Source of the DNA: Candidatus Woesearchaeota archaeon | Lineage (GTDB): Archaea > Nanobdellota > Nanobdellia > Pacearchaeales > GW2011-AR1 | Assembly (NCBI GenBank): GCA_964399015.1 | Contig: CAYNOY010000001.1 | Coordinates: 1 to 48,508, forward strand | Length of the DNA stretch: 48,508 nt | Reading direction: 5' to 3' | In this document: piece after piece, positions 13,135-48,508 of the stretch | How positions within the stretch are numbered: position 1 is the first letter of the stretch | How the letters are laid out: every line of letters begins with the position of its first letter | Notes under the pieces: generated by a model | Databases searched by the model: none | What the model saw: the letters and a program-made list of their open reading frames with translations, nothing else | Told to the model about the DNA's origin: nothing | Position numbers and translations under genes: made by a program

Positions 13135-13268
13135 ATTTTCCTCCACCGCAGAAAGCCGGCTTAGAGAATCTTTGATTTTCTAATTCTTCAACTCTCTTTT
13201 GGAGAGTTGAACACTGTCGCCTTTCCCTTTCTGCACCTTGCGAATTGATATGTTGTTAAGAATTTAAT
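13135..13268 (+). repeat. Family-1 structured intergenic element, copy 2 (interrupted by a twin-hairpin module)
   Basis: Outer stem GCAGAAAG pairs with CTTTCTGC. Inner stem GGC pairs with GCC, and its loop carries the 53-nt module. The tail is ATGTTGTTAAGAATTTAAT. Confidence 0.8.
13160..13212 (+). mobile_element. Twin-hairpin insertion module, copy i
   Basis: Sequence CTTAGAGAATC-TTT-GATTTTCTAA TTC TTCAACTCTC-TTTT-GGAGAGTTGAA. The other eight family-1 copies lack it at this position. Confidence 0.6.
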
Positions 13269-13374
13269 TGAGAGTTAGTAGTTTTGGTTTTGTTAGAAGA
13301 TTTATTCGTGGAGGGAATAGTTTTTTATTTTGGAGCATCTAAATATTTATAATCTTTGTAGATTTTTTGTATGA

Positions 13375-13803
13375 ATGGATTTGCCCATATTAGAGAGTTT
13401 AGTTAATGAAGGGTTTGAAGTTTTGAGTAGTGTTTATTATAATTTTTCGGAGGAACCTAATTTTGAAGTTCCTAAAATTGTTGAAAGGAATATTTATTCG
13501 GGGATTTCGGGGATTTTTGGAGGGATAACTACTGGGATGATTCTTAAAAAATTTAAAAAAGAAATTACTCTGAAATCTAGGTTGGTTTATGCAGGGGCAT
13601 TTACTCTTGGTATGAATGCGATATATTCCTTGCACCCTTCTTCAGAAATTGATTTTTTTGATGGAGGAAGTCTGGGATTATTTTTTGGTGCTTATGTTGG
13701 ATTGAAATTAGGTGAAACAATTGATCGTGGGATTAATAATTTGCATGATCGGGTGATGGATGGATTAAGAAAAAAATATGGGATTGATGAAGAAAATAAA
13801 TAA
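13375..13803 (+). CDS. Hypothetical membrane protein
   Basis: ORF with Gly-rich hydrophobic segments. Confidence 0.4.
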   Translation: MDLPILESLVNEGFEVLSSVYYNFSEEPNFEVPKIVERNIYSGISGIFGGITTGMILKKFKKEITLKSRLVYAGAFTLGMNAIYSLHPSSEIDFFDGGSLGLFFGAYVGLKLGETIDRGINNLHDRVMDGLRKKYGIDEENK

Positions 13804-13808
13804 TAAAA

Positions 13809-14381
13809 CTACTTTCCTCTTCTCATTCCAGCTCTTACACTAGGTCTGTTCTTGTTCATTGGGCTCTTGTCTCTCAGTCCTCTTGATTTCAAACCTGCAG
13901 AAGTTAAACCTCTGTGAGATCTGTCTCTGTGAGATTTTTTAGAAATCCAGCCCATTGTTTTATCGTTTTTAATTTCAGGCCTTTGAGGGTCTACTAAAAT
14001 TACTTCGAAAAAATAATGTTTACCGTCTTTAGCTAGGTTGTAGCTGTTGAGAACTTCAAGGTTAGGGAACTTTTTACTTGCTCTGTTTTCTGCTATCCAT
14101 TGGTAGCTCATCTTTACTGTTTTTTTGATTGTATGTCTTTTTGTTTTTCTACCTTTGTTTGTTCTTGCTCTTTGTCGTCCTCCCCTTAGGACTCGAACTC
14201 TTGCTACAACAAAACCTTTTTTTGCTTTGTAACCTAGACTACGTGCTTTGTCTAAACGAGTTGGTTTATCAAGTACTGTAATAACTTCTTCTTTTCTCCA
14301 GCCGATCATTAGCTCTCTAAGTCTAGCTACGTCTGGTTTCTTCCAAAATTCTCTTAATGCGTGATATAATCCTTTTGCCAT
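13809..14381 (-). CDS. rpl15e: 50S ribosomal protein L15e
   Basis: MAKGLYHALREFWKKP...RVRVLRGGRQRARTNKGRKTKR is characteristic of L15e. Confidence 0.9.
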   Translation of the reverse strand: MAKGLYHALREFWKKPDVARLRELMIGWRKEEVITVLDKPTRLDKARSLGYKAKKGFVVARVRVLRGGRQRARTNKGRKTKRHTIKKTVKMSYQWIAENRASKKFPNLEVLNSYNLAKDGKHYFFEVILVDPQRPEIKNDKTMGWISKKSHRDRSHRGLTSAGLKSRGLRDKSPMNKNRPSVRAGMRRGK

Positions 14382-14472
14382 ATTTTATTGTACTAAAGTT
14401 CGTTTAAAAACCTAACGATTGGTGATTTTTGCGATTAATTTAGGTCAATCGATATTCCCTTGGAATATTATA

Positions 14473-14547
14473 TGAGCCTGCCAAGATTTGAACTTGGGAC
14501 CCCTACCTTATCAGAGTAGTGCTCTGACCTGGCTGAGCTACAGGCTC
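14473..14547 (-). tRNA. tRNA-Ile (anticodon GAU)
   Basis: On the minus strand the acceptor arms are GAGCCTG and CAGGCTC. The D arm is GCTCAGCCAGGTCAGAGC. The anticodon loop is CTGATAA. The T arm is CCAAGTTCAAATCTTGG. Confidence 0.9.
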
Positions 14548-14592
14548 GTATAAAAATTACTATCTAAATGAATTTATAAGTCTTTTGTAAGG

Positions 14593-15279
14593 TTATTTTC
14601 CTTCTAATTCTATGACTAGATTCCCGTCAACAAGGTCGTATGCTTTTACAGGTAAATTCATGTTAAGTGTTTTAGAATAAACTTTGTCTTTCCCGATGGC
14701 TTTTATTTCAATGCAACTTTCTAATTGATTGATGAAAATATCTTCGATGTTTTTGACTCCTGGAACTTGGAGGTTGTACATTACTTTTCCAGATAATCTT
14801 CTGACTTGGGATTTAGGTTCGACTTTTGGAAGTTTAGCTAACAATTTCATTTTTTCTTTTGATAGTTCTTTTTGAGGAGCTTGTGGTTTTTGAGTTGGAT
14901 TAATTTCAGGGTTATTTGTTGGATTGACTGGTTTGCCGTTAACAAGGAATTGAACGTTCATGCCTCTGCGAGGTTGTTCTTGGGGGTTTCTATTTTGATT
15001 TACAGAATTTTCCATTTGTTTTTCAATCATTTTGATCATTGAGGGTAATTCTTTCATTGCGCCTTTTAGTATTTTTCCTATTGGAAGTCCGCCCATTAAT
15101 CCTCCTAAGTTTATGTTTTCTAAAAAGTCTGGTTCTTTTGGTTTGATAGCGTCATTTTTTCCTAATAGGCCGTAATCTTTTTCATCAAACTGGGATTTTA
15201 AATTAGCTCCGCAATTAGGACAGAAGTCATAATTTTTTTTGAGGGGGTTGTTACACTTAGAACATTTTTGATTAAACAT
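14593..15279 (-). CDS. Zinc-ribbon protein with C-terminal beta-rich (HSP20-like?) domain
   Basis: The N-terminus has CSKCNNPLKKNYDFCPNCG. The C-terminal assignment is tentative. Confidence 0.45.
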   Translation of the reverse strand: MFNQKCSKCNNPLKKNYDFCPNCGANLKSQFDEKDYGLLGKNDAIKPKEPDFLENINLGGLMGGLPIGKILKGAMKELPSMIKMIEKQMENSVNQNRNPQEQPRRGMNVQFLVNGKPVNPTNNPEINPTQKPQAPQKELSKEKMKLLAKLPKVEPKSQVRRLSGKVMYNLQVPGVKNIEDIFINQLESCIEIKAIGKDKVYSKTLNMNLPVKAYDLVDGNLVIELEGK

Positions 15280-15310
15280 GGTTCTATTATTAAATCTGGT
15301 TCCTTTAAAT

Positions 15311-15376
15311 ATGTTCGTATGGAACCTACGGTTTCCTTACAAGTCACCCTCCCTCTAGTAGCTTCCTTCGGAGAAG
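15311..15376 (-). repeat. Family-3 leader element, proximal tandem copy
   Basis: Minus-strand sequence: CTTCTCCGAAGGAAG hairpin, then GCTACTAGAGGGAGGGTGACTTGTAAGG, then the GAAACC-GTA-GGTTCC hairpin. The element ends about 30 nt before the ATG at 15279. Confidence 0.7.
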
Positions 15377-15390
15377 TATCTTTTGATTGA

Positions 15391-15458
15391 ATGTTCGTAT
15401 GGAACCTACGGTTCCCTTACAAGTCACCCTCCATTTAGTAGCTTCCTTCGGAAGTTTA
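15391..15458 (-). repeat. Family-3 leader element, distal tandem copy
   Basis: Offset by 80 nt from the proximal copy. It carries the CTTCCGAAGGAAG and GGAACC-GTA-GGTTCC hairpins. Confidence 0.7.
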
Positions 15459-15636
15459 CTATATGCTGGATGATAGAAACCTTTTTAATAATAAATTGCT
15501 TAGATATGTTATAAAGATGGGTGTCATTACATTTATGTGATTAGGCCAGGCGCCCGTTTTTGTGTTTACAAAGAGAAATTGAATAAATTTCCCTAGTATC
15601 ACTAAACTAAAAGTTTAGTAATAAAAAAAAGAGAAG

Positions 15637-16293
15637 ATGGATCAAGAAGAATTATTGAAAAAGTATGGTATAGACTTGGAAGTGCTAGAGAAGGAGCAGA
15701 TGAAATTGGCTAAGAATTTGAAGTTGAAGGATAAAATTGATTTTTCTCTTGTTGAAACTTATGGGGCGATTGATAATATTTTTATTGGGAATAAAATGCT
15801 TTCTTGTGTGATTGTTTGTGATAAGAATTTTGAGATTTTGGATAGAGCTTATGTTTTGGATAAGGTGAAGTTTCCTTATTTGGCGGGATTTAGGAATTAT
15901 CGGGAGCTTGAGTCAATGATTAAAGCTTTTGAGAAATTGAATGAGAAGCCAGATGTTTTGTTTATTCAGGGTCATGGGATTTCACATCCGCGTTTGGGGC
16001 TTGCGAGTCATTTTTCTCTTTCGACAGGAGTTCCAACAATTGGTGTTAGTAATTCTTTGGCTGATGCAGAAGTGAAGAAAGATGATGTTTTGATAGGTGA
16101 TAAAAAGGTTGGGAAAGTGTTAATAAGTAAAGAAGGGAGTAACCCAATGTATATAAGTCCTGGAAACTTAATAACTATAGATAATTCGTATAAATTTGCT
16201 AAGGATTTGATTCGTTTGCCCCATAAAAGGCCTGAACCGATTCATTTAGCGTCGAAGTATGCGAAAAAAGTAAAAAAAGAATTAGCTCTCTGA
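15637..16293 (+). CDS. nfi: Endonuclease V
   Basis: PDVLFIQGHGISHPRLGLASHFSLSTGVPTIGVSNS matches the EndoV core. Confidence 0.85.
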   Translation: MDQEELLKKYGIDLEVLEKEQMKLAKNLKLKDKIDFSLVETYGAIDNIFIGNKMLSCVIVCDKNFEILDRAYVLDKVKFPYLAGFRNYRELESMIKAFEKLNEKPDVLFIQGHGISHPRLGLASHFSLSTGVPTIGVSNSLADAEVKKDDVLIGDKKVGKVLISKEGSNPMYISPGNLITIDNSYKFAKDLIRLPHKRPEPIHLASKYAKKVKKELAL

Positions 16294-16325
16294 GTTAAAA
16301 TTTAAATCAAAAAAAGGAGGTAAAA

Positions 16326-16490
16326 ATGCAACAAACACCAGCACAAACAGCTCAACCTGCGGCAGGTGGAAAGGCGGCGGGAAAGCCAGTAGTCGGAGGA
16401 GAATCGTCGAATAAGGGATGGTTAAAATGGGTTATTATAGCAGTAGTAGTTATCGTAGTAGCTGTAGGGCTATACTATTGGTTAATGTAA
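16326..16490 (+). CDS. Small tail-anchored membrane protein (54 aa)
   Basis: Hand-translated: MQQTPAQTAQPAAGGKAAGKPVVGGESSNKGWLKWVIIAVVVIVVAVGLYYWLM. A strong Shine-Dalgarno sequence, AAGGAGGT, ends 5 nt upstream of the ATG. Confidence 0.5.
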   Translation: MQQTPAQTAQPAAGGKAAGKPVVGGESSNKGWLKWVIIAVVVIVVAVGLYYWLM

Positions 16491-16593
16491 TTTAACTTTT
16501 TATTTTTTTTATTTTTATGTGTTTATTTTTTTGATGGTGGGTGGTGAAAGGTTTTGGAGGGGGGGAGGGTGGTGAAGGGTTTTTTGGAGATAT

Positions 16594-16733
16594 AGTTTGT
16601 TTGGAACAAACGAAAGTTTATTTTATGTCAGATTGGGAAGACGGAGTCTAACCCAATCTTCTAGTTTCTCAGAGAATTAAAAATTCTCTGATCCTTCAAG
16701 AGGTAGTGCTCTTGAAGTTATTGATAGTTTGTG
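16594..16733 (+). repeat. Family-2 two-hairpin element, copy A (interrupted by a twin-hairpin module)
   Basis: Hairpin 1 is GTTTGTT:AACAAAC. It is followed by AAAGTTTATTTTATGTCA. Hairpin 2 is GATTGGG..CCCAATC. The element ends TTCTAGTTT[module]TATTGATAGTTTGTG. Confidence 0.75.
16669..16717 (+). mobile_element. Twin-hairpin insertion module, copy ii
   Basis: Sequence TCAGAGAATT-AAAA-AATTCTCTGA TC CTTCAAGAG-GTAGTG-CTCTTGAAG. It is absent from the equivalent site in family-2 copies B and C. Confidence 0.6.
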
Positions 16734-16769
16734 AATTTTTGGGATTATGAAATAAGTTTGGAAATAATA

Positions 16770-16855
16770 TGCACCATGCGGCTTAGAGAATCAAAGATTC
16801 TCTAATCCTTCAACTCTTTTTTTGAGAGTTGAAGTTAATTGAACCCGCGTCTAAA
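16770..16855 (-). pseudogene. Duplicated tRNA-Gly 3' portion with its T-loop interrupted by a twin-hairpin module
   Basis: Minus-strand sequence TTTAGACGCGGGTTCAATTAA[module]GCCGCATGGTGCA. It repeats the last ~33 nt of the adjacent tRNA-Gly. No 5' half is present. Confidence 0.6.
16782..16834 (+). mobile_element. Twin-hairpin insertion module, copy iii
   Basis: Sequence CTTAGAGAATC-AAA-GATTCTCTAA TC CTTCAACTC-TTTTTTT-GAGAGTTGAAG. By eye it is about 80% identical to copy i. Confidence 0.6.
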
Positions 16856-16863
16856 TTATTTCA

Positions 16864-16934
16864 TGCACCATGCGGGAATCGAACCCGCGTCTAAACCTTG
16901 GGAAGGTTTTATTCTACCACTATACCAATGGTGC
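16864..16934 (-). tRNA. tRNA-Gly (anticodon CCC)
   Basis: On the minus strand the acceptor arms are GCACCAT and ATGGTGC. The anticodon stem-loop is AAACC-TTCCCAA-GGTTT. The T arm is GCGGGTTCGATTCCCGC. The discriminator base is A. Confidence 0.85.
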
Positions 16935-17016: not shown

Positions 17017-18462
17017 ATGGCTAATAAGAAAAAGTTTTATGTTACGACTCCGATATATTATGTTAATTCGGAACCTCATGTTGGGTCTGCTTATACGACT
17101 ATAGCTGCAGATATTTTTGCGAGATGGCATAGGCTTTTGGAAGAGGATGTTTATTTTTTGACTGGGACAGATGAGCATGGTCAGAAGATTCAAGAGTCTG
17201 CTGAAAAGAAGGGGGTTAGTCCTAAGAAGTTTGTTGATGAGATTTCTGGGAAGTTTAAGAAAGTTTTTGAGGATTTGAATATTTCTAATGATGATTTTAT
17301 TAGGACGACTGATAAGGATCATGAGAAGGCTGTTCAGGATATTTTGCAGAAGCTTTATGATAAGAAGTTGATTTACAAGGGCGAGTATGAGTCTTATTAT
17401 TGTGTTGGTTGTGAGCAGTATTTGAATAAGGGGGATTTGGTTGATGGAAAGTGTGTTTTGCATAAGACAGAGCCTGAGAAGGTTAAGGAAGAGTCTTATA
17501 TGTTTAAGCTATCGAGTTTTGAGGATAAGCTTTTGAAGTTGATTAAGAGTGGAAAGTATGAGATACTTCCCTTGAAAAAAAGGAACGAGGTTGTTTCTTT
17601 TATCGAGAGTGGTTTGAATGATATTTCTATTTCAAGGAAAAAGTCTAAGGTTAGTTGGGGAATTGAGTTGCCTTTTGATAAGGTGCATACTTGTTATGTT
17701 TGGGTTGATGCTTTTTGGAATTATTTGAGTGGATTGAGAACTCCTGCGAATCATAAAAAGTTTTGGTCGCCTGATTTGCAGTTGATGGCGAATGATATTT
17801 TGAGAGTTCATGCTACGATTTGGCCGGCGTTACTTTTGGGATTGAATATTGATTTGCCGAAGACTTTGTTTATTCATGGATATTTTACAGTTAATGGGCA
17901 GAAGATGAGTAAGTCTTTGGGTAATGTTGTTTCTCCGGAATATCTTATTGATAAATATGGTGCAGATTCTTTGAGGTATTTTATAATTAGAAATATTCCA
18001 TTTGGAGATGATGGGGATTTTTCAGAAGAGACTTTGAAGGATAGGCATAACAATGAGTTGGCGAATAAGTTGGGGAATTTGGTTAGTAGGATTTGTGGAT
18101 TGGTTGAGAGAAACGGAGTTGAGAAGTGCGATAAGTTGTTGAAGAAATTGCATTTGAAAAAGATTACTGGATTGATTGATAATTATGAATTGGATAAGGC
18201 GTTGAATGAGATTTTTGCTTTTATTGATGTTTGTAATGAATATGTTCAGAATAAGAAACCCTGGGAGACTAAAGATGGGAAGGTTTTGTATGAGGTGGTT
18301 GATTCGATTAAAGCTATTGCAATTTTGCTTTGGGCGTTTATGCCGGAGACTTGTGAGAAGATTGCGAAGCAGATGAAGTTTAAGTTAGAGTTGGATGAGA
18401 TTGATAAGCCGATAAAAGTAAAATCTATAAAGAAGGGTGAGATTTTATTTGAGAAGGTTTGA
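17017..18462 (+). CDS. metG: Methionyl-tRNA synthetase (short form, no C-terminal tRNA-binding domain)
   Basis: The HIGH-type motif is EPHVGSAY and the KMSKS motif is QKMSKSLGN. A zinc knuckle CVGCEQY..CVLH is present. The protein is 481 aa. Confidence 0.93.
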   Translation: MANKKKFYVTTPIYYVNSEPHVGSAYTTIAADIFARWHRLLEEDVYFLTGTDEHGQKIQESAEKKGVSPKKFVDEISGKFKKVFEDLNISNDDFIRTTDKDHEKAVQDILQKLYDKKLIYKGEYESYYCVGCEQYLNKGDLVDGKCVLHKTEPEKVKEESYMFKLSSFEDKLLKLIKSGKYEILPLKKRNEVVSFIESGLNDISISRKKSKVSWGIELPFDKVHTCYVWVDAFWNYLSGLRTPANHKKFWSPDLQLMANDILRVHATIWPALLLGLNIDLPKTLFIHGYFTVNGQKMSKSLGNVVSPEYLIDKYGADSLRYFIIRNIPFGDDGDFSEETLKDRHNNELANKLGNLVSRICGLVERNGVEKCDKLLKKLHLKKITGLIDNYELDKALNEIFAFIDVCNEYVQNKKPWETKDGKVLYEVVDSIKAIAILLWAFMPETCEKIAKQMKFKLELDEIDKPIKVKSIKKGEILFEKV

Positions 18463-18466
18463 GGTT

Positions 18467-18545
18467 ATTTCCGTCCCGCAGAAAGCCGGTTGTCACCTTT
18501 CCCCTTTCTGCTCCTTGCATATTATTATGCTGTCAAGAATTTAAT
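18467..18545 (+). repeat. Family-1 structured intergenic element, copy 3
   Basis: Outer stem GCAGAAAG:CTTTCTGC and inner stem GGT-TGTC-ACC. The tail is ATGCTGTCAAGAATTTAAT. It begins 5 nt after the metG stop codon. Confidence 0.8.
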
Positions 18546-18587
18546 TGAGGGGTTTGATTGGTTCATTTTGTTTTGAGAGATTATTGT

Positions 18588-21982: not shown

Positions 21983-22040
21983 GTTAGGAGTGGGTTTTAT
22001 ATCGAATTGGGGTGGAGAGGTTATTTGATTTGAGTTGTTG

Positions 22041-22112
22041 TTCTCCCCCTGCAGAAAGCCGGTTTCACCTTTTCCTTTCTGCTCTCCAATAACTGTTAGT
22101 GTATAAATTTTA
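22041..22112 (+). repeat. Family-1 structured intergenic element, copy 4 (divergent tail)
   Basis: Outer stem GCAGAAAG:CTTTCTGC and inner stem GGT-TTC-ACC. The tail is replaced by GTGTATAAATTTTAG. Confidence 0.7.
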
Positions 22113-22177
22113 GTATAGTGGTTAGAGGGTTTTATGATTTGTGGAAGGTGTTTAGCGTTTATGAAGATGAGTTTTCT

Positions 22178-24667: not shown

Positions 24668-24742
24668 TAAGATTAATAGAGGTTTAGAATTAATAATCTT
24701 TGTTGTGATTGAATTTTCTTTGTGGAAATTGAGATGTGTTGT

Positions 24743-24818
24743 TTTGCGCCACCGCGAAAGGCCGTGCTCGCACTTTTCCCTTTCGCCCTCAATTACTGAT
24801 ATGGTTAAAATTTTATAA
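24743..24818 (+). repeat. Family-1 structured intergenic element, copy 5 (divergent tail)
   Basis: Outer stem GCGAAAGG:CCTTTCGC and inner stem GTGC-TC-GCAC. The tail is GGTTAAAATTTTATAAG. Confidence 0.7.
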
Positions 24819-25599: not shown

Positions 25600-25670
25600 G
25601 TTGATTTGAGGATTGGGGAGTTTTTAAGGTTTTTGGGTGTTGGAAGTGGAGGGTTATTTGGTGAAGGTTG

Positions 25671-25749
25671 TTTTCCTCCGCCGCGAAAGGCCGTGCTCGC
25701 ACTTTCCCCTTTCTGCTCCTTGTAGGAATTATGTTGTCAAGAATTTAAT
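25671..25749 (+). repeat. Family-1 structured intergenic element, copy 6
   Basis: The outer stem GCGAAAGG:CCTTTC(T)GC has one bulge. The inner stem is GTGC-TC-GCAC. The tail is ATGTTGTCAAGAATTTAAT. Confidence 0.8.
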
Positions 25750-25785
25750 TGTGGAAAGGGATTAATTGAGGAGGCATGTAAAAAT

Positions 25786-30272: not shown

Positions 30273-30334
30273 TGTTAGGGTTTTTGGAAGAATGGTTTTT
30301 GAAGATGTTTAGGTTTAAGGTTTGATTAGGGTGT

Positions 30335-30418
30335 ATTCCTCCTCCGCGAAAATCCGTTCCTTATGTCACTTTCCCATTTTCGCCCCGTTGTATATTATTA
30401 TGTTGTCAAGAATTTAAT
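30335..30418 (+). repeat. Family-1 structured intergenic element, copy 7
   Basis: The outer stem is GCGAAAAT:ATTTTCGC. The tail is ATGTTGTCAAGAATTTAAT. Confidence 0.8.
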
Positions 30419-30465
30419 TTGGTTATTTGGTTTCTTTAGGATTTGAATGGATTGGGTTCGAAACG

Positions 30466-34996: not shown

Positions 34997-35260
34997 ATGA
35001 ATATTAATATTATTAAAGATGATAAGAATGAACTTGAAGTGAATTTAGATAATCAGACGATTGTTGAGATTGTTCGTGTTTATTTGAATAAGGACCCTGC
35101 TGTTAAGTTGGGTGCTTGGAAGAAAGAGCATTATTCTAGACCTTTGACTTTGAAGATAGTTAGTGAAGGAAAGGCTCCGAAGAAAGCCTTGCAAGATGCG
35201 ATTGCTTTGGCTCAAAAAGATTTGAAGAAGTATGGCGATGAGTTCAGTAAGGCTAAGTGA
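34997..35260 (+). CDS. rpoL: DNA-directed RNA polymerase subunit L (Rpo11)
   Basis: MNINIIKDDKNELEVNLDNQTIVEIVRVYLNKDPAVKLGAWKKEH follows the RpoL pattern. The start is chosen from the TATA spacing; the ORF-track TTG at 34952 is rejected. Confidence 0.7.
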   Translation: MNINIIKDDKNELEVNLDNQTIVEIVRVYLNKDPAVKLGAWKKEHYSRPLTLKIVSEGKAPKKALQDAIALAQKDLKKYGDEFSKAK

Positions 35261-35272
35261 TTTTTGAGAGAT

Positions 35273-35356
35273 AGTTCGCTTCGCGAAGATTTTATTTTAT
35301 GTCAATTTGGGAGGGCGTAGCCCAACCCAAATTTCTAATTTTATTAATAGTGTTGT
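35273..35356 (+). repeat. Family-2 two-hairpin element, copy B
   Basis: Hairpin 1 is TTCGC:GCGAA. It is followed by TTTTATTTTATGTCA. Hairpin 2 is ATTTGGG..CCCAAAT. The element ends TTCTAATTTTATTAATAGTGTTG. It starts 13 nt after the rpoL stop codon. Confidence 0.75.
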
Positions 35357-36324: not shown

Positions 36325-36356
36325 TGAAGGGTGTTGTAAATTTTATTTTGGGTTGT

Positions 36357-36435
36357 ATTTCCTCCTCCGCGAAAGGCCGGCTTACGCCTTTCCCCTTTCG
36401 CTCCGGGCATATTGATAGGTTATCAAGAATTTAAT
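36357..36435 (+). repeat. Family-1 structured intergenic element, copy 8
   Basis: Outer stem GCGAAAGG:CCTTTCGC and inner stem GGC-TTAC-GCC. The tail is GGTTATCAAGAATTTAAT. Confidence 0.8.
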
Positions 36436-36487
36436 AAAGAGGTTTAGTCACATAATATTTAAATAGTTTCTTTGGGTTGAATATTCT

Positions 36488-38241: not shown

Positions 38242-38277
38242 TTAGTTTGTTTTTTTTGTTTTTGTTTTTTTATATTT

Positions 38278-38367
38278 AGTTCGCTTCATAGAAGCGAAAG
38301 TTTATTTTATGTCAAAATGGGGGGACGAGTCCGACCCATTTTTCTAATCTTATTGAAAGTGTGTTGG
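38278..38367 (+). repeat. Family-2 two-hairpin element, copy C
   Basis: Hairpin 1 is TTCGCTTC:GAAGCGAA. It is followed by AAAGTTTATTTTATGTCA. Hairpin 2 is AAATGGG..CCCATTT. The element ends TTCTAATCTTATTGAAAGTGTGTTG. Confidence 0.75.
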
Positions 38368-42973: not shown

Positions 42974-43019
42974 TTTGTTCTATAGATATATTTAAAAAGG
43001 TATTTACTTCTATAGAGTA

Positions 43020-43566: not shown

Positions 43567-44865
43567 CTAGGGTTTTCTAGATGTAACCTTTCCTTGGATA
43601 ATTTTAAATTTTGTGTAGGGCAATAAAGCTTTTGGAATTTTTATTGAGCCGTCTTTTTGTTGGTTGTTTTCTATGATTGCTACTAGTGCTCGTGATGTTG
43701 CGATGACTGTATTGTTTAGAGTGTGGGCGAAATAGTTTTTTTTACCGTCACTGATTTTTATTCCCAATCTTCTTGCCTGAGCTTCTTCCATGTTTGTTAA
43801 AGAGGTTATTTCAAAATATTCTTTTCGTCTTGGGGACCATGCCTCTAAGTCACAAGATTTTGCTTTTAGATCTGCTAAATCTCCTGAACAACATTCTAAA
43901 ACTCTGAATGGAATTTCTAGTTCTTTGAAAATTCCTACGCTAAAGTTTAACATTTTGTCATACCATTTGTATGAATCTTCTGGTTCGCAGATTACAATCA
44001 TTTCTTGTTTGTTAAATTGATGTGTTCTGTAAATTCCTTTTTCATCAATTCCGTGTGAACCTATTTCTTTTCTGAAGCACATTGAATAACCGGTTTGTAA
44101 AACTGGTAGTTCTTTTTTTTGTAGGGCTTTGTTTATGAATTGTCCGATTAAAGGATGTTCTGATGTTGCGATTAAGTAGGCATCTTCTCCTTCGACTTTG
44201 TATGCCATTGCATTGATTTCTGCAGTTGAATAAACTCCATCTAAAACTTCTTTTTTTATCATTAATGGGGGTTCAACATAGATGAATTCTTTTTTTACCA
44301 TATAATCTCTTGCGAAATTTATTAAGGCCATATTTAATAATGCTAATTCTCCTTTTAGGAAATAGAATCCTTTTCCTGAAATATCTGCAGAGGTGTCAAA
44401 GTCTAGGAGTCTTAATGATTCTCCTAACTCTACATGACTTTTTACATCGAAGTTGAATTTTGGAATCTGACCATATTTTTTTATCTCAACATTTTCTTTA
44501 TCTGATTTTCCAATAGGAACTGATTTATGAATTATGTTGGGAATTTTCATTATTATGATTTTTACTTCTTCTGCTAATTTGTCTGCTTTTTCTTCTATCT
44601 TTTTTATTTTTTCAGGGATGTCTCCGGCTTGTTTGATTAATGTCTTAGCTAACTTTTCGTCTTTTGTTTTTTTAGCTTTACTAATTTCTAAAGAAATTTT
44701 ATTTCGCTCACTTCTTAATTCGTCAACCTGATATTTTAGTTTTCTCCACTGTTCGTCTAATTTTTTTGCTTTATCTACTAATGGGAGCTTTTCATCTTGG
44801 AATTTCTTTTTTATATTTTCTTTTACTAAGTCTGGATTTTCTCTAATTAGTTTTATGTCTATCAT
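43567..44865 (-). CDS. serS: Seryl-tRNA synthetase
   Basis: The N-terminus MIDIKLIRENPDLV, a coiled-coil arm, and class II core motifs (FRKEIGSHG, TLNNTVIATSR). The start is placed at the ATG at 44865 rather than the ORF-track TTG at 44880. Confidence 0.92.
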   Translation of the reverse strand: MIDIKLIRENPDLVKENIKKKFQDEKLPLVDKAKKLDEQWRKLKYQVDELRSERNKISLEISKAKKTKDEKLAKTLIKQAGDIPEKIKKIEEKADKLAEEVKIIIMKIPNIIHKSVPIGKSDKENVEIKKYGQIPKFNFDVKSHVELGESLRLLDFDTSADISGKGFYFLKGELALLNMALINFARDYMVKKEFIYVEPPLMIKKEVLDGVYSTAEINAMAYKVEGEDAYLIATSEHPLIGQFINKALQKKELPVLQTGYSMCFRKEIGSHGIDEKGIYRTHQFNKQEMIVICEPEDSYKWYDKMLNFSVGIFKELEIPFRVLECCSGDLADLKAKSCDLEAWSPRRKEYFEITSLTNMEEAQARRLGIKISDGKKNYFAHTLNNTVIATSRALVAIIENNQQKDGSIKIPKALLPYTKFKIIQGKVTSRKP

Positions 44866-44880
44866 ATCGTTTGTATCCAA

Positions 44881-44958
44881 GGCACCAAGGTTCCTTAGAT
44901 GTATCCTCCCTTGAGATTACAAGTCATCTTCCCTCTAATAGCTTCCTTCGGAAGTTTA
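44881..44958 (-). repeat. Family-3 leader element upstream of serS
   Basis: On the minus strand: AAACTTCCGAAGGAAGCTATTAGAGGGAAGATGACTTGTAA, then a 23-nt insertion, then GGAACCTTGGTGCC. The element ends 15 nt before the serS ATG. Confidence 0.7.
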
Positions 44959-45053
44959 TCATGTTCAGATAATTGTCTATATTTAATAATAACTTAAGAA
45001 ATTAGTATTATTTAAAGTTTCTTCTAAACATTTAAATATTAGTTTTTTGTTTT

Positions 45054-45674
45054 ATGTGTAAGATGGTGAATCAAAAAGTTTTGATAAGAGATAAATATCG
45101 ACGGCATAAAAAAGTTTTTGTTTTTTTGGTGATAATGATATTGTTGGTTGTGACTATTTTGGTGATTTTTTTAATGGGATATTTATCTAAGGATGTAACG
45201 AATCAGATTGTTATTGAGAATCCTTTGAAAGGTCTTGTTTTTGCAAATACTAATGAGGCTGGGCAGGTTGATAAACAAGCAGTTGTTGAGCAGGCAGTAT
45301 TGGAATTTGATGCAGACTATATTAATTTTATTTTGTTTGCTTTAGGAATTGATAATCTTCATAAATCTTATGTGGGTTATGGGAATCCGGTGGTGGAGTT
45401 ACAAGTTGATAATGAAATTTGGTCTTCGGAGATTGATGGCGGTTTGTTGAATACTGCTCGTGTGGCTAATGCTGAAAAAGATTTAAAAATAACTATGAGT
45501 CGTCTGGAGGCTGTTGAGGCACTTTTGTCTTCGGATATAAATTTATTTATGAAAACTTCGGTGACAAATGGAAATACTCAAATAGAAATGGTTGCTAATA
45601 AGGTTGAGTTGGGTAGTAAGGGTTACTTGGCAATGTATAAGACGATTACTGGTGAAGAGATTTCTGCGGAGTGA
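45054..45674 (+). CDS. Membrane-anchored hypothetical protein
   Basis: ORF with one N-terminal transmembrane helix. Confidence 0.4.
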   Translation: MCKMVNQKVLIRDKYRRHKKVFVFLVIMILLVVTILVIFLMGYLSKDVTNQIVIENPLKGLVFANTNEAGQVDKQAVVEQAVLEFDADYINFILFALGIDNLHKSYVGYGNPVVELQVDNEIWSSEIDGGLLNTARVANAEKDLKITMSRLEAVEALLSSDINLFMKTSVTNGNTQIEMVANKVELGSKGYLAMYKTITGEEISAE

Positions 45675-45808
45675 TTGGTTAGTAATGATTTGTTGGTACT
45701 CAAAAATTAAGTAACTTGGATTTGTTACTGTTTGGTTAAATTTTTGTTACGAAACCTTTATAAGCGAATATATGACTTAAATATATAGATTGAAATGAGT
45801 ACATAAAA

Positions 45809-46102
45809 ATGTACGCATTGAATCATATAAACAAAATGAAAGATAATTTTGACATTTTTTTCCGCAGAAAGCCAGCATTAATGTTAGTAGCTTTAAGGAA
45901 ATTATCAAAGGCTCGATACGGTTCTGTATTAGCTAAAGAAGTAGACTGTACTTATTCGCATGCAGTCAAAATTTTGCAAACTCTAGAAGAACTAGGTTTA
46001 GTGAAGTTTGAAAAGAAAGGGCGAATAAAGTTGATAGAACTTACAAAGAAGGGTGAAGAGATTGCAGAACATATTGACCAGATAAAGAGAACCATAAACT
46101 AA
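45809..46102 (+). CDS. Small winged-helix transcription regulator
   Basis: YGSVLAKEVDCTYSHAVKILQTLEELGLVKFEKKGRIKLIELTKKG fits a wHTH (ArsR/MarR-like) fold. Confidence 0.55.
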   Translation: MYALNHINKMKDNFDIFFRRKPALMLVALRKLSKARYGSVLAKEVDCTYSHAVKILQTLEELGLVKFEKKGRIKLIELTKKGEEIAEHIDQIKRTIN

Positions 46103-46173
46103 TCCTTTTTTTATTTTTAGTTTTTTAATTGCTTAGATAGATTTAGCTTGTTTTGGATAAGAGTTTTGAGTTA

Positions 46174-46256
46174 TTTTCCGCCACCGCAGAAATCCGGTTT
46201 CACCTTTCCCATTTCTGCTCCTTGTATATTGATATTGTTGAATATAAATATTAATA
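46174..46256 (+). repeat. Family-1 structured intergenic element, copy 9 (divergent tail)
   Basis: Outer stem GCAGAAAT:ATTTCTGC and inner stem GGT-TTC-ACC. The tail is GTTGAATATAAATATTAATAA. Confidence 0.75.
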
Positions 46257-46279
46257 AACTTGGATTTATTTTGATTATT

Positions 46280-46600
46280 ATGGCGTTAGAAGATTTTGAA
46301 AAAACAGTTATGAAAAATATTAATCGTAATCTTGGAACTGATATGACAATTGAAGAAATTAGGAAAATGCCGATTGATGAATACAGGGTGCTAGTTGAGG
46401 AGATAAAGGGAAGACCGTTGAGATTTAGTTATGGAACTTTGCCTGGAGCCTCTACTGATTGTGATGGGAGTTGTTCGGGTTTGAGTCTTGTGGGTCAAGA
46501 ATTTATGAGTTCTAAGGAGTGTGATAAGGCAGGTCGTGATGCGGTAAAAGTTCCTTGGCATGAATATGTTAGCAGAGTTTATCAATGGTTTAAAAGATAA
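46280..46600 (+). CDS. Hypothetical protein
   Basis: Start set at the ATG at 46280. The ORF-track start at 46148 would translate through family-1 copy 9. Confidence 0.4.
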   Translation: MALEDFEKTVMKNINRNLGTDMTIEEIRKMPIDEYRVLVEEIKGRPLRFSYGTLPGASTDCDGSCSGLSLVGQEFMSSKECDKAGRDAVKVPWHEYVSRVYQWFKR

Positions 46601-46602
46601 TT

Positions 46603-47286
46603 TTATCTTGATTTATCTACGCCGTTTCTTTCGCACGATTCATTTATAGGGCATTTGCTACATAGGGGACTTATAGGTAGGCAGATGTTTTTTCCGAATA
46701 GGACGAATATTCCGTTGAAGTCTCCCCAGTATTCTTTTGGTAGGACTTTCATTAGGGCGAATTCTGATTTTTCTGCGGTTGGAGTTTTGATCCAGCCGAG
46801 TCTGTTTGGGATTCTGTGGCAGTGGGTGTCTATGGGAAGGACATCTTGATTGAATGCGAAGTTTAGTACAATGTTTGCTGTCTTTGGCCCTATGCCTTTT
46901 ATGGATATTAATTCTTCTCGAGTTGATGGTACTTGATTATTGAATCGATTAAGGATTTCATTTGAGGCATGTTTTAGGATTTGGGATTTCTTTTTATAGT
47001 GGCCTGTTGAGAAGATTATTTTTTCTAGTTTTGAAGTTGGGATAGAGATGATTTGTTGCGGAGTATCTGCTATTTTGAATAAATTTTCTGAGACTTTTTC
47101 TGTGACTTCGTCTTTTGTTCTTAGTGATAGAAGACACGAGATTAGAATTTTGAAAGCATCTTCTTTTCCCTTCATTCGATTAAGGGTAGTCCTGTCTGTG
47201 TAGTTGAAGTGTTGCTTTAGTTTGTTCATTGTTTGGGAGATGTTTTTGTGGGGAGGCATTTTGAAGGATGTTTTTGGTGGGGGCAT
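46603..47286 (-). CDS. nth: Endonuclease III (HhH-GPD DNA glycosylase with 4Fe-4S cluster)
   Basis: LISCLLSLRTKDEVT, the HhH motif IKGIGPKTANIV, and the cluster CLPISPLCSKCPINESC. An alternative start ATG at 47229 (MNKLKQHF) is plausible. Confidence 0.88.
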   Translation of the reverse strand: MPPPKTSFKMPPHKNISQTMNKLKQHFNYTDRTTLNRMKGKEDAFKILISCLLSLRTKDEVTEKVSENLFKIADTPQQIISIPTSKLEKIIFSTGHYKKKSQILKHASNEILNRFNNQVPSTREELISIKGIGPKTANIVLNFAFNQDVLPIDTHCHRIPNRLGWIKTPTAEKSEFALMKVLPKEYWGDFNGIFVLFGKNICLPISPLCSKCPINESCERNGVDKSR

Positions 47287-47287
47287 T

Positions 47288-47542
47288 TTAATTGTAAACT
47301 TTTGCTCGTTTATCTATCTTGACAATGCCAATAAATTTCTTAGAATAATCAATTTCATAAAGGACTCTAAAATTTCCTACACGTATCCTAAAGAGATTTC
47401 TATCTTTTAATTTTTTTGAATCTGTAATAATTGGGTCTTGTTTTAATAACTCCATTTTATTCAAAATTCTCTGTTTAGTAATATTATCTATATTCTTAAG
47501 AAATTTTTTGACTTGATTTGAAAAAAATAAATTAAACATCAT
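47288..47542 (-). CDS. relE: RelE/ParE-family type II toxin
   Basis: The 84 aa size and FRIRVGNFRVLYEIDYSKKFIGIVKIDKR fit the RelE pattern. It overlaps the upstream small gene by 4 nt. Confidence 0.75.
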   Translation of the reverse strand: MMFNLFFSNQVKKFLKNIDNITKQRILNKMELLKQDPIITDSKKLKDRNLFRIRVGNFRVLYEIDYSKKFIGIVKIDKRAKVYN

Positions 47543-47742
47543 AAATTGAGCTCTTTTTTCAATTGCTCATGTGAAATTAATTCTCCATTCTTTTTTTCTT
47601 TCTCGTAAGCTTCAATTGCTTGCATGTCATCCTCATCCAAAATTGTATCTGAATCTTGAATATTTGATTTAATATAATTTACGTCAGTTTGAAGTTTCTT
47701 TAATATTTCTAGAACTTCTGAATTTATTGTTTGTGTTTCCAT
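47539..47742 (-). CDS. Putative antitoxin partner of the RelE-like toxin
   Basis: A 67 aa acidic protein immediately upstream, overlapping the toxin gene by 4 nt. Confidence 0.55.
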   Translation of the reverse strand: METQTINSEVLEILKKLQTDVNYIKSNIQDSDTILDEDDMQAIEAYEKEKKNGELISHEQLKKELNL

Positions 47743-47838
47743 GTTATTTTAGAATTTTTTAGATATTTAAGTTTTTGTATTGAAAATTTATTGTAGAAAA
47801 TTTATATTTTTAATTAAAAGCGGGATTATATATTTATT

Positions 47839-48306
47839 TTAAATAATTCTTCTTGATAAATGAAGTAGTTTGTTATAAATCATAAATAAGCCCATTCCAA
47901 ATAAGATTAGGATTAAAATAAGTGGGATGATTGAAAAAAGAAAAATGCCTGCTGCTATAATTGCTATAATAAATTCTCCTGAATCTAATGTTCCCCCATA
48001 GTATTTTATCTCATTATTTTGTGAGATTAATTCTGAAGATATCGATATGATTGATAAAAAGATAGTTGAATTAATAATTCCCATCAGAATAACGTCTATT
48101 TTTTCCTTGTTATGAATTGAAAGAATAAAACCTAATAAGACATTTGAAATAATTAAATACAGGATAAAAATTAATGTTGTGGAAATAAAATCCTCTGAGA
48201 ATTCTTTCTTAAAATAAATGAACGAGAATATCCCCAATGCAAGATATATAATTAAAATAATCGAATTATATAAATCATATTTTTTTGTTAAGTTTCTAAT
48301 ATTCAT
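47839..48306 (-). CDS. Multi-pass membrane protein, hypothetical
   Basis: ORF with four or five hydrophobic helices. Confidence 0.4.
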   Translation of the reverse strand: MNIRNLTKKYDLYNSIILIIYLALGIFSFIYFKKEFSEDFISTTLIFILYLIISNVLLGFILSIHNKEKIDVILMGIINSTIFLSIISISSELISQNNEIKYYGGTLDSGEFIIAIIAAGIFLFSIIPLILILILFGMGLFMIYNKLLHLSRRII

Positions 48307-48313
48307 TTTAAAA

Positions 48314-48388
48314 AATGGCCTGCGGGCTCAGAAAATTTCTGATTCTCTGATTCTCAAAAAGGCATAGCCTTTTCTCGATGAATTGAAC
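48314..48388 (+). repeat. tRNA-3'-end-like unit carrying twin-hairpin module iv (module at 48328-48377)
   Basis: On the minus strand: GGGTTCAATTCA[module]GAGCCCGCAGGCCA followed by TTTTTT. It is repeated exactly 120 nt away. Confidence 0.65.
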
Positions 48389-48433
48389 CCATATGGGTAC
48401 AAATCCCTTAGGTAATATCCTTGGAGGATATTG

Positions 48434-48508
48434 AATGGCCTGCAGGCTCAGAGAATTTCTGATTCTCTGATTCTCAAAAAGGCATAGCCTTTTCTCGATG
48501 AATTGAAC
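48434..48508 (+). repeat. tRNA-3'-end-like unit carrying twin-hairpin module v (module at 48448-48497), truncated by the window edge
   Basis: It differs from 48314-48388 at two positions (48324/48444 and 48333/48453). Confidence 0.65.

What the first reader, a model, noticed from the sequence alone, without database searches (positions are those of the whole stretch)
13160..48497. A ~50-nt twin-hairpin module inserted into other structured elements, with uninterrupted comparator sites in the same window
Five co-oriented copies lie at 13160-13212, 16669-16717, 16782-16834, 48328-48377 and 48448-48497.

Hairpin X is nearly invariant: T[T/C]AGAGAAT-loop-ATTCTCT[A/G]A. After a 2-3 nt linker comes hairpin Y. 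Its sequence differs between copies but the pairing is preserved: CTTCAACTC:GAGAGTTGAAG, CTTCAAGAG:CTCTTGAAG, and AAAAGGC:GCCTTTT.

Three copies can be compared with uninterrupted relatives in this window:
- Copy i sits in the inner-stem loop of family-1 copy 2. There the sequence reads AAAGCCGG^module^ACTGTCGCCTTTCC, against AAAGCCGGTTGTCACCTTTCC in copy 3.
- Copy ii splits family-2 copy A. There the sequence reads TTCTAGTTT^module^TATTGATAGT, against TTCTAATTTTATTAATAGT in copy B and TTCTAATCTTATTGAAAGT in copy C.
- Copy iii splits the T-loop of a duplicated tRNA-Gly 3' end. There the sequence reads GCACCATGCGG^module^TTAATTGAACCCGCG, against GCACCATGCGGGAATCGAACCCGCG in the intact gene.

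I see no target-site duplication longer than 1 nt. Four of the five left junctions end in GGC.

I see two readings. It could be a mobile archaeal bulge-helix-bulge-type mini-intron that lands in loops of structured RNAs. That would imply families 1 and 2 are transcribed RNAs. Alternatively, it could be a palindrome-associated miniature element mobilised as single-stranded DNA in the manner of IS200/IS605. That model fits the hairpin ends, the lack of target duplication and the strict strand bias.
Basis: partly seen in the sequence, partly recalled or inferred. Interest (0 to 1): 0.85.

Follow-up and report, generated by a model that had tools for sequence, protein, structure and literature searches.

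The report
Mobile twin-hairpin DNA module in archaeon
A 51-54-base unit made of two adjacent DNA hairpins has been copied precisely into other hairpin-forming non-coding sequences of a small DPANN-type archaeon, including spare 3' end copies that sit just behind intact tRNA genes; it behaves like a tiny non-autonomous mobile element, not like a tRNA-type intron.

Summary
Five co-oriented twin-hairpin modules lie at 13160-13213, 16668-16718, 16782-16835, 48327-48379 and 48447-48499. All three in-window comparator alignments show a clean insertion of about 51-54 nt with no target duplication.

New findings:
- Copies 4 and 5 are also in tRNA context. They sit in two tandem 120-nt units that end in an intact tRNA-Lys about 50 nt beyond the window.
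- The arrangement [quoted passage not shown] recurs for Gly, Lys, Ala and Arg in at least three genomes.
- About 25 further copies in related metagenomic contigs and MAGs occupy the same few host sites.
- Near-identical module subtypes occur in different hosts, so the module moves independently of its host.
- Hairpin loops flip orientation.
- The module usually reads on the G-rich strand.

No consistent bulge-helix-bulge motif exists, so the intron reading is not supported. The IS200/IS605-like reading fits only in outline: there is no conserved target tetranucleotide, the end architecture is atypical, and no transposase was seen.

Best reading: a new variant of the miniature palindromic mobile DNA elements, probably moved as single-stranded DNA. 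The enzyme is unknown.

The parts
13160..13213 (+). Module copy 1 (X: TTAGAGAATC-TTT-GATTTTCTAA; Y: TTCAACTCTC-TTTTG-GAGAGTTGAA), inserted in the loop of family-1 copy 13131-13275 after GCAGAAAGCCGG
16668..16718 (+). Module copy 2, inserted in family-2 copy A (16581-16735) between TTCTAGTTT and TATTGATAGT
16782..16835 (+). Module copy 3, splitting a duplicated tRNA-Gly 3' fragment at about tRNA nt 61/62
16771..16855 (-). Duplicated 3' fragment of tRNA-Gly (variable region, T arm, acceptor 3' strand and discriminator), carrying copy 3. It lies immediately downstream, in tRNA sense, of the intact gene
16864..16934 (-). Intact tRNA-Gly(CCC), the uninterrupted comparator for copy 3
48327..48379 (+). 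Module copy 4 (X carries an A.C mismatch), in the distal 120-nt unit downstream of tRNA-Lys
48447..48499 (+). Module copy 5, in the proximal 120-nt unit downstream of tRNA-Lys
48314..48508 (-). Two tandem 120-nt units. In tRNA sense each holds a post-tRNA hairpin, a variable hairpin, a T-loop-like GGGTTCAATTC, the module, and the acceptor 3' strand CC(T/C)GCAGGCCATT. The array runs off the window and ends in an intact tRNA-Lys(CTT) about 50 nt beyond it (L009 838-914)
   Evidence: (D10)
18462..18550 (+). Uninterrupted family-1 copy, used as comparator. The others are at 8889-8983, 22031-22116, 24734-24815, 25664-25755, 30327-30422, 36348-36441 and 46166-46245
35255..35350 (+). Uninterrupted family-2 copy B, used as comparator
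   Evidence: (D8)
38265..38360 (+). Uninterrupted family-2 copy C, used as comparator
   Evidence: (D8, D17)

Best explanation
The module is a 51-54-nt non-coding, non-autonomous mobile DNA element made of two adjacent palindromes.
- X (CTYAGAGAAT-loop-ATTCTCTRAT) is conserved in sequence and is probably the part a protein recognises.
- Y is conserved only as a hairpin.

Shown:
- It is inserted precisely, without target duplication and without a conserved target sequence.
- It occupies a small set of hairpin-forming non-coding sites in one lineage of Nanoarchaeota/Pacearchaeota-like (DPANN) archaea. These are the loop of repeat family 1 (two positions), a site in repeat family 2 and its relatives, and the T-loop/T-stem junction (about nt 61/62) of dispensable 3'-terminal tRNA gene duplicates.
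- Its orientation is fixed relative to each host and usually follows the G-rich strand.

Inferred:
- It is moved in trans as single-stranded DNA by an unidentified hairpin-recognising enzyme (HUH/Y1-like, or a recombinase).
- It lands where folded single-stranded DNA exposes a loop edge. On the G-rich strand this is typically the 5' arm of a short host hairpin, one nucleotide before its loop.
- In tRNA genes, only insertions in a partial duplicate of the 3' region survive, because the single-copy tRNA must stay intact. Alternatively, duplication and insertion arise in one repair or recombination event.
- The 'compensatory' changes in Y and the loop flips reflect DNA-level palindrome dynamics (arm-to-arm template switching), not RNA selection.
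For: Discrete insertion.
- In-window comparators are clean.
- L022 reads GGCCG[51 nt]TGCTCGCAC against the empty window copies GGCCGTGCTCGCAC.
- L019 reads ACTGG[51 nt]GAATCGAAC against the intact tRNA-Ala.

Mobility independent of host.
- Copy 3 (tRNA-Gly fragment) is 91% identical to a family-1-borne copy in another genome (L003).
- In L018, a family-1 position-1 copy and a family-1 position-2 copy are 94% identical and carry the same Y subtype.
- The L019 tRNA-Ala copy is 90% identical to the family-2 copy in L038.
- Empty and filled family-1 copies coexist in the same contigs.

Recurrent tRNA architecture. It is seen at Gly and Lys (window and L009), Arg-CCT (L005) and Ala (L019), always at about nt 61/62 and always in the same orientation.

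DNA-level behaviour.
- X and Y loops occur in both orientations: CTTTG/CAAAG, TTCTA/TAGAA, TTTGT/ACAAA.
- The single-stranded DNA folds are strong.
- In one search's 20 locus rows, 17 have the module on the G-rich strand. After collapsing duplicate contigs and adding the window, this is about 14-15 of 17 independent loci.

No bulge-helix-bulge motif was found.

Lineage-specific. The module is absent from relatives at 75-76% MetRS identity and from viral contigs.
Against: - No partner enzyme was found. About 50 window ORFs are housekeeping genes or have no Pfam match, with no transposase, integrase, Cas1 or reverse transcriptase. A from-memory IS608 TnpA query found nothing in about 400 kb of six-frame ORFs.
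- No empty-versus-filled polymorphism at one and the same locus could be found. All contigs covering the window loci are identical.
- Strand bias cannot be separated from host orientation. Every tRNA carrying the canonical module is on the C-rich strand. Family 1 is inverted relative to the module in L038 and L033.
- Spread within a host family could be gene conversion between paralogous host copies rather than transposition.
- The count of G.T against A.C mismatches in stems is too small to exclude an RNA-level role.
Confidence: 0.5

Rival explanations
1. Site-specific recombination products. X, a 9-bp inverted repeat around a 5-nt spacer, would be a recombinase core-type site. The 100-120-nt units behind tRNA genes would be miniature integrated cassettes or decayed remnants of tRNA-targeting integrative elements, accreted in tandem at the regenerated 3' end of the tRNA.
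For: - A direct repeat of the tRNA 3' end (12-23 nt, sometimes running into the 3' flank) brackets each unit. This was seen at 7 of 16 tRNAs examined.
- There are tandem units at tRNA-Lys.
- The left boundary of the repeat lies at the T-loop/T-stem junction. From my own knowledge, not checked here (Williams 2002), this is a known crossover sublocation for tRNA-targeting tyrosine integrases.
- A mobile element leaving tRNA fragments in an archaeal population has been described (PMC3293823).
Against: - Only 60-130 nt lie between the repeats, with no integrase or cargo.
- The T-arm-like part of each unit is specific to its cognate tRNA (the Arg unit has TTCGAGTC), so it was copied from the target rather than brought in by a common element.
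- The module splits what should be a contiguous attR core.
- The same module also sits inside family-1 and family-2 elements that have no flanking repeats.
- There are no distant tRNA-end repeats in the window.
Confidence: 0.15
2. Not a transposon but a host-selected functional motif, for example a palindromic protein-binding site or an RNA 3'-processing, termination or stability signal. It would spread among paralogous repeats by gene conversion and local duplication, and be kept because it is useful.
For: - The X stem is nearly invariant across contigs from several environments, while Y drifts.
- The linker ATYCT is conserved although it is unpaired.
- Modules lie in tRNA trailers ahead of the T-run that probably ends transcription: Lys TTTTTT, Arg TTTTAATTTT.
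- Spread within families 1 and 2 needs only homologous recombination.
Against: - At least four independent arrivals occurred at the equivalent T-arm position of tRNAs whose flanks share no homology. Gene conversion cannot explain these.
- There are two different positions within family 1.
- Most family-1 and family-2 copies and most tRNAs lack the module, so it is not required for them.
- Loop flips argue against a strand-specific RNA signal.
Confidence: 0.15
3. A mobile archaeal bulge-helix-bulge-type mini-intron, or another RNA-level insertion, that enters loops of structured RNAs and is removed by the tRNA splicing endonuclease.
For: - Insertions are precise, without target duplication, at loop edges of structured sequences, including a tRNA T arm. 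Non-canonical intron positions and intron transposition are known in Thermoproteales (papers listed).
- Orientation relative to each host is constant.
Against: - No conserved hBHBh' motif at the junctions in either strand: 2 of 21 and 5 of 21 sporadic weak hits at non-equivalent positions, and none usable in the tRNA-plus-unit transcripts.
- The tRNA hosts are 3' fragments beside an intact gene, so excision gives no tRNA.
- Loop flip-flop is a DNA-palindrome trait.
- No Rfam family matches.
Confidence: 0.05

Closest known systems
IS200/IS605-derived palindrome-associated transposable elements (PATEs), moved by the Y1 (HUH) transposase TnpA through single-stranded 'peel and paste' transposition
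   Same: Short and non-coding. Hairpins are essential. Insertion is precise, without target duplication. Orientation is tied to one replication strand (PMC5027513).
   Different: No conserved tetra- or pentanucleotide lies 5' of the insertion. The two hairpins are unrelated in sequence and sit 1-2 nt from the ends, rather than being similar subterminal hairpins set back from the cleavage sites. No tnpA or tnpB was seen. Targets appear to be defined by structure (loop edges of other hairpins).
REP/BIME/REPIN elements with RAYT (TnpA-REP) in bacteria
   Same: Extragenic palindromes with a conserved stem and variable loop, built into mosaics with other repeat modules and thought to be mobilised in trans (PMC3116915, PMC8266576).
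   Different: The RAYT (TnpA-REP) classes are described as bacterial REP systems, and only IS200-type Y1 proteins (subclass 1.1) were observed in archaea (PMC6006769). REPINs are inverted pairs of the same REP, whereas here two different hairpins lie in tandem. Insertion into tRNA T-arm fragments is not a REP trait.
Mobile non-canonical tRNA introns of Thermoproteales (BHB introns)
   Same: Short insertions at non-canonical tRNA positions, including the T arm, with related sequences in different hosts (papers listed).
   Different: Those introns sit in functional genes and are flanked by BHB motifs. Here the hosts are gene fragments and no BHB is present.
tRNA-gene-targeting integrative elements and the tRNA fragments they leave (e.g. 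the Caldiarchaeum tRNA-Thr locus, PMC3293823)
   Same: An intact tRNA with a nearby partial copy of the same tRNA and direct repeats of the tRNA end.
   Different: Here the inserts are only 60-130 nt with no recombinase gene. The fragment is itself split by the module, and the module also occurs far from tRNAs.

Membership tests
Archaeal BHB (bulge-helix-bulge) intron | hBHBh' or relaxed BHB motif (3-nt bulge, 4-bp helix, 3-nt bulge) positioned at both intron boundaries | tested here: not met
   A custom search around 21 copies on both strands gave only 2 and 5 weak hits at non-equivalent positions. No usable motif occurs in the four tRNA-plus-unit transcripts.
Archaeal BHB (bulge-helix-bulge) intron | Excision restores a functional RNA gene | tested here: not met
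   The tRNA hosts are 3' fragments of about 33 nt next to an intact gene. The function of families 1 and 2 is unknown, and no Rfam family matches.
Archaeal BHB (bulge-helix-bulge) intron | Spliced or circularised RNA products | not testable with these tools
   No transcriptome data are available.
IS200/IS605-type PATE | Insertion immediately 3' of a conserved tetra- or pentanucleotide target | tested here: not met
   Left flanks are GCCGG, GGCCG, CGTCA, AGTTT, AGTCT, TACCT, CTAAA, ACTGG and AGGCA.
IS200/IS605-type PATE | Similar subterminal hairpins at the left and right ends, set back from the cleavage sites | tested here: not met
   X and Y are unrelated in sequence and start 1-2 nt from the ends.
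IS200/IS605-type PATE | No target-site duplication; precise insertion | tested here: met
   L022 and L019 compared with empty sites.
IS200/IS605-type PATE | Orientation bias relative to the replication strand | tested here: inconclusive
   The module lies on the G-rich strand in about 14-15 of 17 independent loci. This is confounded with host-element orientation, and the replication direction is only inferred from skew.
IS200/IS605-type PATE | Y1 transposase (TnpA) encoded in the same genome | not testable with these tools
   None was found in the window ORFs or in about 400 kb of six-frame ORFs queried with a from-memory TnpA sequence.
REP/BIME with RAYT | A RAYT gene flanked by cognate REPs, and a conserved 5' tetranucleotide next to the palindrome | not testable with these tools
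   A conserved CTYA lead and an ATYCT linker exist, but no RAYT-like gene could be searched genome-wide. In the survey read, only IS200-type Y1 proteins were observed in archaea (PMC6006769).
Classical MITE | Terminal inverted repeats and a target-site duplication | tested here: not met
   The ends (CTYAGAG... and ...GAAGT) are not inverted repeats of each other, and there is no duplication.
tRNA-targeting integrative element (att site remnant) | Direct repeats of the tRNA 3' part flanking an element that encodes or once encoded an integrase, with a contiguous attR core | tested here: not met
   The repeats are present, but the inserts are 60-130 nt with no ORF, and the fragment is split by the module. 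No distant repeats occur in the window.
Integron attC site | R''/R' core sites (RYYYAAC...GTTRRRY), extrahelical bases, and an adjacent intI gene with a cassette array | tested here: not met
   Only the copy-1/copy-3 type of Y (CTTCAAC...GTTGAAG) resembles the cores; the other Y subtypes do not. Stems are perfect, without extrahelical bases. No integrase was seen.

The most novel reading that the evidence does not exclude
A previously undescribed transposition mode in DPANN archaea. A twin-hairpin element with no known transposase would target the stem-loop junction of folded single-stranded nucleic acid, notably nt 61/62 of the tRNA T arm. Its insertion would be mechanistically coupled to duplication of the tRNA 3' region, so that every hit leaves an intact gene plus a module-bearing pseudo-3' end. 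This would be a new route to tRNA gene fragmentation and to building mosaic repeats.
Probability: 0.15. Interest if true: 0.85.

Novelty: new variant of a known kind. Interest (0 to 1): 0.6.

Why it matters
- DPANN archaea have tiny genomes and are rarely examined for non-coding mobile DNA. One MITE survey did report a Woesearchaeal genome among the densest archaeal MITE carriers (PMC11602168).
- A hairpin module that lands in other hairpin elements, and in the T arm of tRNA gene copies, would give a concrete, testable system for two questions. One is how structured repeats become mosaics. The other is how tRNA genes acquire insertions, fragments and, possibly, introns or split genes in archaea.
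- If its enzyme is an HUH/Y1-type or a new hairpin-specific recombinase, it would extend REP/RAYT-like biology to archaea.
- The recurrent pattern "intact tRNA plus module-split 3' copy" is also a practical warning for tRNA annotation and for calling integration sites in MAGs.

Tried and rejected
- BHB intron. A custom strict BHB search on 21 copies and on four tRNA-plus-unit transcripts found nothing consistent.
- Known RNA families. Rfam at gathering and at E<=1 gave only the two tRNAs.
- Partner gene. Pfam on about 50 window ORFs gave no transposase, integrase or reverse transcriptase. phmmer with a from-memory IS608 TnpA against 1,536 six-frame ORFs of all fetched DNA gave nothing. One small ORF next to the L005 unit has an HNH-like tail, but it is below Pfam threshold and found only once.
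- Virus or plasmid origin. The viral-contig scan gave only one chance hit, in a coding region.
- Site polymorphism. All metagenome contigs that overlap the window loci are 99.8-100% identical, and all that span a module locus show the same module state. The genes flanking tRNA-Lys have no homologues outside this population. Relatives at 75-76% MetRS identity lack the module, family 1 and the neighbouring tRNA-Gly.
- Contig extension. Extending the contig to the left failed.
- Covariance model. A model of the module was not built, because MAFFT cannot align Y structurally. Regex plus hairpin checks were used instead.
- G.T against A.C counting in stems, to choose an RNA strand, had too few informative mismatches.
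- A general excess of hairpins was rejected. Perfect stems of 8 bp or more number 13 against about 6 expected, and the surplus is essentially the modules themselves.
- Distant att-like repeats of tRNA ends: none in the window.

Full report
**Setting.** The window has 34% G+C with a strong, uniform strand asymmetry: G>C and T>A on the + strand, whatever the gene orientation. Its genes are housekeeping genes of a small archaeon. They include short MetRS, ValRS and SerRS, eRF1, an ATP-dependent DNA ligase, topoisomerase, RadA, L15e and endonuclease V. MetRS homologues carry source names such as Nanoarchaeota, Pacearchaeota or 'uncultured archaeon'. No transposase, integrase, Cas1 or reverse transcriptase was found among about 50 ORFs.

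**Observation.**
- A loose search for hairpin X finds exactly five sites. Each is followed 2-7 nt later by a second hairpin on the + strand.
- The exact pattern occurs 3 times against 0.01 expected.
- Four of the five copies fold as twin hairpins as single-stranded DNA, with z-scores of -2.9 to -7.4. The fifth, 48327-48379, has an A.C mismatch in X and its minimum-energy fold uses a shorter alternative X stem.
- Refined boundaries are 13160-13213, 16668-16718, 16782-16835, 48327-48379 and 48447-48499.
- Copy 1 is a clean insertion relative to eight uninterrupted family-1 copies.
- Copy 3 is a clean 54-nt insertion relative to the intact tRNA-Gly(CCC) 3' end.
- Copy 2 interrupts TTCTAGTTT|TATTGATAGT relative to family-2 copies B and C.
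- There is no target duplication.

A metagenome contig identical to the window's right end (L009) shows the full context of copies 4 and 5. They lie in two tandem 120-nt units that end in an intact tRNA-Lys(CTT) on the minus strand, about 50 nt beyond the window. In tRNA sense each unit holds:
- a hairpin that also follows tRNA-Ile;
- a variable hairpin;
- a T-loop-like GGGTTCAATTC;
- the module;
- the T-stem 3' strand plus acceptor 3' strand, CC(T/C)GCAGGCCATT.

The T6 run follows only the last unit. So three of the five window copies share one architecture: an intact tRNA, then one or more duplicated 3' fragments split by the module at about nt 61/62.

**Copies elsewhere.** One pattern scan each of GTDB genomes and of metagenome contigs returned many chance hits in unrelated bacteria. 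It also returned about 25 true modules in AT-rich archaeal contigs. They occupy the same few host contexts:
- family 1 after GCCGG or GGCCG (many copies);
- family 1 at a second position after CGTCAC (L012, L018);
- family 2 at the same point as copy 2 (L038), and relatives of it (L020, L026, L041, L047);
- duplicated tRNA 3' fragments next to the intact gene, for Arg-CCT (L005) and Ala-TGC (L019).

Insertion is exact. L022 reads GGCCG[51 nt]TGCTCGCAC against the empty window copies GGCCGTGCTCGCAC. L019 reads ACTGG[51 nt]GAATCGAAC against its intact tRNA.

Left flanks share no motif: GCCGG, GGCCG, CGTCA, AGTTT, TACCT, CTAAA, ACTGG and AGGCA.

On the G-rich strand the insertion point is typically in the 5' arm of a short host hairpin, one nucleotide before its loop. 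Examples are GCGG^G-AATCGAA-CCCGC, CTGG^G and CAGG^G for T arms, and GG^T-TGTC-ACC and GG^C-TTAC-GCC for family 1. This is not universal.

**Mobility.** The nearest relatives of a module often sit in a different host:
- copy 3 (tRNA-Gly fragment) and a family-1 copy in another genome, 91%;
- family-1 position 1 and position 2 copies in L018, 94%, with the same Y subtype also in family 2 (L038);
- tRNA-Ala (L019) and family 2 (L038), 90%;
- copy 2 (family 2) and L012 (family 1), 90%.

Filled and empty family-1 copies coexist in the same contigs. The four tRNA contexts share no flanking homology. At least four independent arrivals at the equivalent T-arm position are therefore needed, and gene conversion alone cannot explain them.

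Relatives at 75-76% MetRS identity lack the module and family 1. Viral contigs gave only a chance coding hit.

**DNA or RNA?**
- A strict bulge-helix-bulge search around 21 copies gave sporadic weak hits at non-equivalent positions: 2 of 21 on the + strand and 5 of 21 on the - strand. There was no usable motif in the tRNA-plus-unit transcripts.
- The tRNA hosts are fragments, so excision would not produce a tRNA.
- Rfam finds nothing beyond the two tRNAs.
- The loops of X (CTTTG/CAAAG, TTCTA/TAGAA) and of Y (TTTGT/ACAAA) occur in both orientations relative to the rest of the module. This is typical of DNA palindromes, through arm-to-arm template switching. It also offers a DNA-level explanation for the 'compensatory' evolution of Y, and of the variable hairpin that distinguishes the two Lys units.
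- In one search's 20 locus rows, 17 have the module on the G-rich strand. After collapsing duplicate contigs and adding the window, this is about 14-15 of 17 independent loci. This is confounded with host orientation, and family 1 is inverted relative to the module in L038 and L033.

**The tRNA repeats are a wider phenomenon.**
- Of 16 tRNA genes in the fetched DNA, 7 have a repeat of their last 12-23 nt lying 65-130 nt downstream. The chance expectation is about 0.005 per tRNA.
- Four of these carry the canonical module. Three (Gln in L033, Arg-TCT in L031, Leu in L005) carry other hairpins. None is hairpin-free.
- In L031 a 5' fragment of tRNA-Cys followed by a solo X lies upstream of the gene.
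- The T-arm-like part of each unit is specific to its cognate tRNA (the Arg unit has TTCGAGTC). In Arg and Leu the repeat extends into the 3' flank.
- The units therefore look like local tandem duplications of the tRNA 3' region, with the hairpin insert in the non-essential copy.
- Whether duplication precedes insertion (with selection for an intact gene) or arises in the same repair or recombination event is inferred, not shown.

**Comparison with known systems.**
- The module resembles IS200/IS605-derived PATEs and REP/BIME elements in being a short hairpin element, inserted precisely, with a strand bias (PMC5027513, PMC3116915).
- It fails two defining features of IS200/IS605 that could be tested: a conserved target tetranucleotide, and similar subterminal hairpins set back from the ends.
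- No Y1 gene was seen. In the survey read, only IS200-type Y1 proteins were observed in archaea, and the RAYT (TnpA-REP) classes are described as bacterial REP systems (PMC6006769).
- It is not a TIR/TSD MITE.
- It is not an ordinary att remnant. The inserts are 60-130 nt, they contain no integrase gene, and the core is split. tRNA fragments left by integrating elements are, however, known in archaea (PMC3293823).
- It does not match integron attC sites beyond a partial resemblance of one Y subtype.

**Verdict.** The feature is real and the module is a discrete, mobile, lineage-specific twin-palindrome element. The intron interpretation is not supported. A single-stranded-DNA, hairpin-guided mechanism is the best-supported working model (confidence about 0.5), but its enzyme is unidentified. 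I rate it a new variant of the miniature palindromic mobile elements. The recurrent T-arm targeting and tRNA 3'-end duplication are its most unusual and most testable features.

Noticed in passing
window 8889-8983, 13131-13275, 18462-18550, 22031-22116, 24734-24815, 25664-25755, 30327-30422, 36348-36441, 46166-46245: Repeat family 1: nine co-oriented copies of about 90 nt. An 8-bp outer stem covaries (GCAGAAAG/CTTTCTGC, GCGAAAGG/CCTTTCGC, GCGAAAAT/ATTTTCGC, GCAGAAAT/ATTTCTGC), followed by a conserved tail GTCAAGAATTTAAT. Copies often start just after the stop codon of a co-oriented gene. No Rfam match. Inverted relative to the module in L038 and L033.
   Followed up: partly
window 16581-16735, 35255-35350, 38265-38360: Repeat family 2: an invariant TTTATTTTATGTCA (BRE/TATA-like) flanked by hairpins whose arms covary between copies. 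Function unknown, no Rfam match.
   Followed up: partly
window 15311-15372, 15391-15452, 44891-44952: A third repeat family (...TTACAAGTCACCCTCC...AGCTTCCTTCGGA), with two copies in tandem at an 80-nt period. Related elements in L020, L026 and L041 carry the twin-hairpin module.
   Followed up: no
window ~14449-14470 and 48412-48432: A similar hairpin lies directly 3' of tRNA-Ile (minus-strand sense AATATTCC-AAG-GGAATATC) and directly 3' of tRNA-Lys and of each Lys unit (AATATCCT-CCA-AGGATATT). It may be a tRNA 3' processing or termination element, or another module type.
   Followed up: no
L009 ~360-480 (about 700-820 nt beyond the window's right end): A family-1 copy carrying a different twin hairpin (CCGAGAATTG-gaa-CAATTCTCGG plus AAAAACTAGTGCT-gta-AGCACGTAGTTTTT) at another position. 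Its first hairpin shares the GAGAAT/ATTCTC core with X. This suggests a wider superfamily of such modules.
   Followed up: no
L005 7510-7842: A 111-aa ORF with an HNH-like C-terminus (CANCHRKEH; Pfam HNH E=0.017, below cut-off). It sits between the module-bearing tRNA-Arg unit and tRNA-Gly(TCC). Found only once in the fetched DNA.
   Followed up: partly
L031 ~4650-4830 (minus strand): A duplicate of the first 12 nt of tRNA-Cys, followed by a solo X hairpin, lies about 170 nt upstream of the intact gene. This is the mirror image of the 3'-fragment architecture, with the insertion at the D-stem/D-loop edge.
   Followed up: partly
window 1-48508: Very strong compositional strand asymmetry: GC skew about +0.26 overall, and positive in nearly every 2-kb bin regardless of gene strand. 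All three tRNA genes of the locus are on the C-rich strand.
   Followed up: partly
window 48380-48412 versus L009 ~925-960 (the two Lys units): The two 120-nt units are 97% identical across the 75-nt block that includes the module (D10). They differ at about 6 positions in one small hairpin, in a compensatory way (ATGA...TCAT against GGG...CCC). This means hairpin arms change rapidly but in step.
   Followed up: no
L023 1-1343 versus window ~10700-12047: Contig L023 is 100% identical to window 12048-16730, but its first 1.3 kb does not match the window. This suggests a strain-level breakpoint within or near the DNA ligase gene.
   Followed up: no
window 47288-47542: A ParE-family toxin gene. 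A small upstream ORF, the likely antitoxin, was called only in the contig annotation (L009 1727-1930).
   Followed up: no
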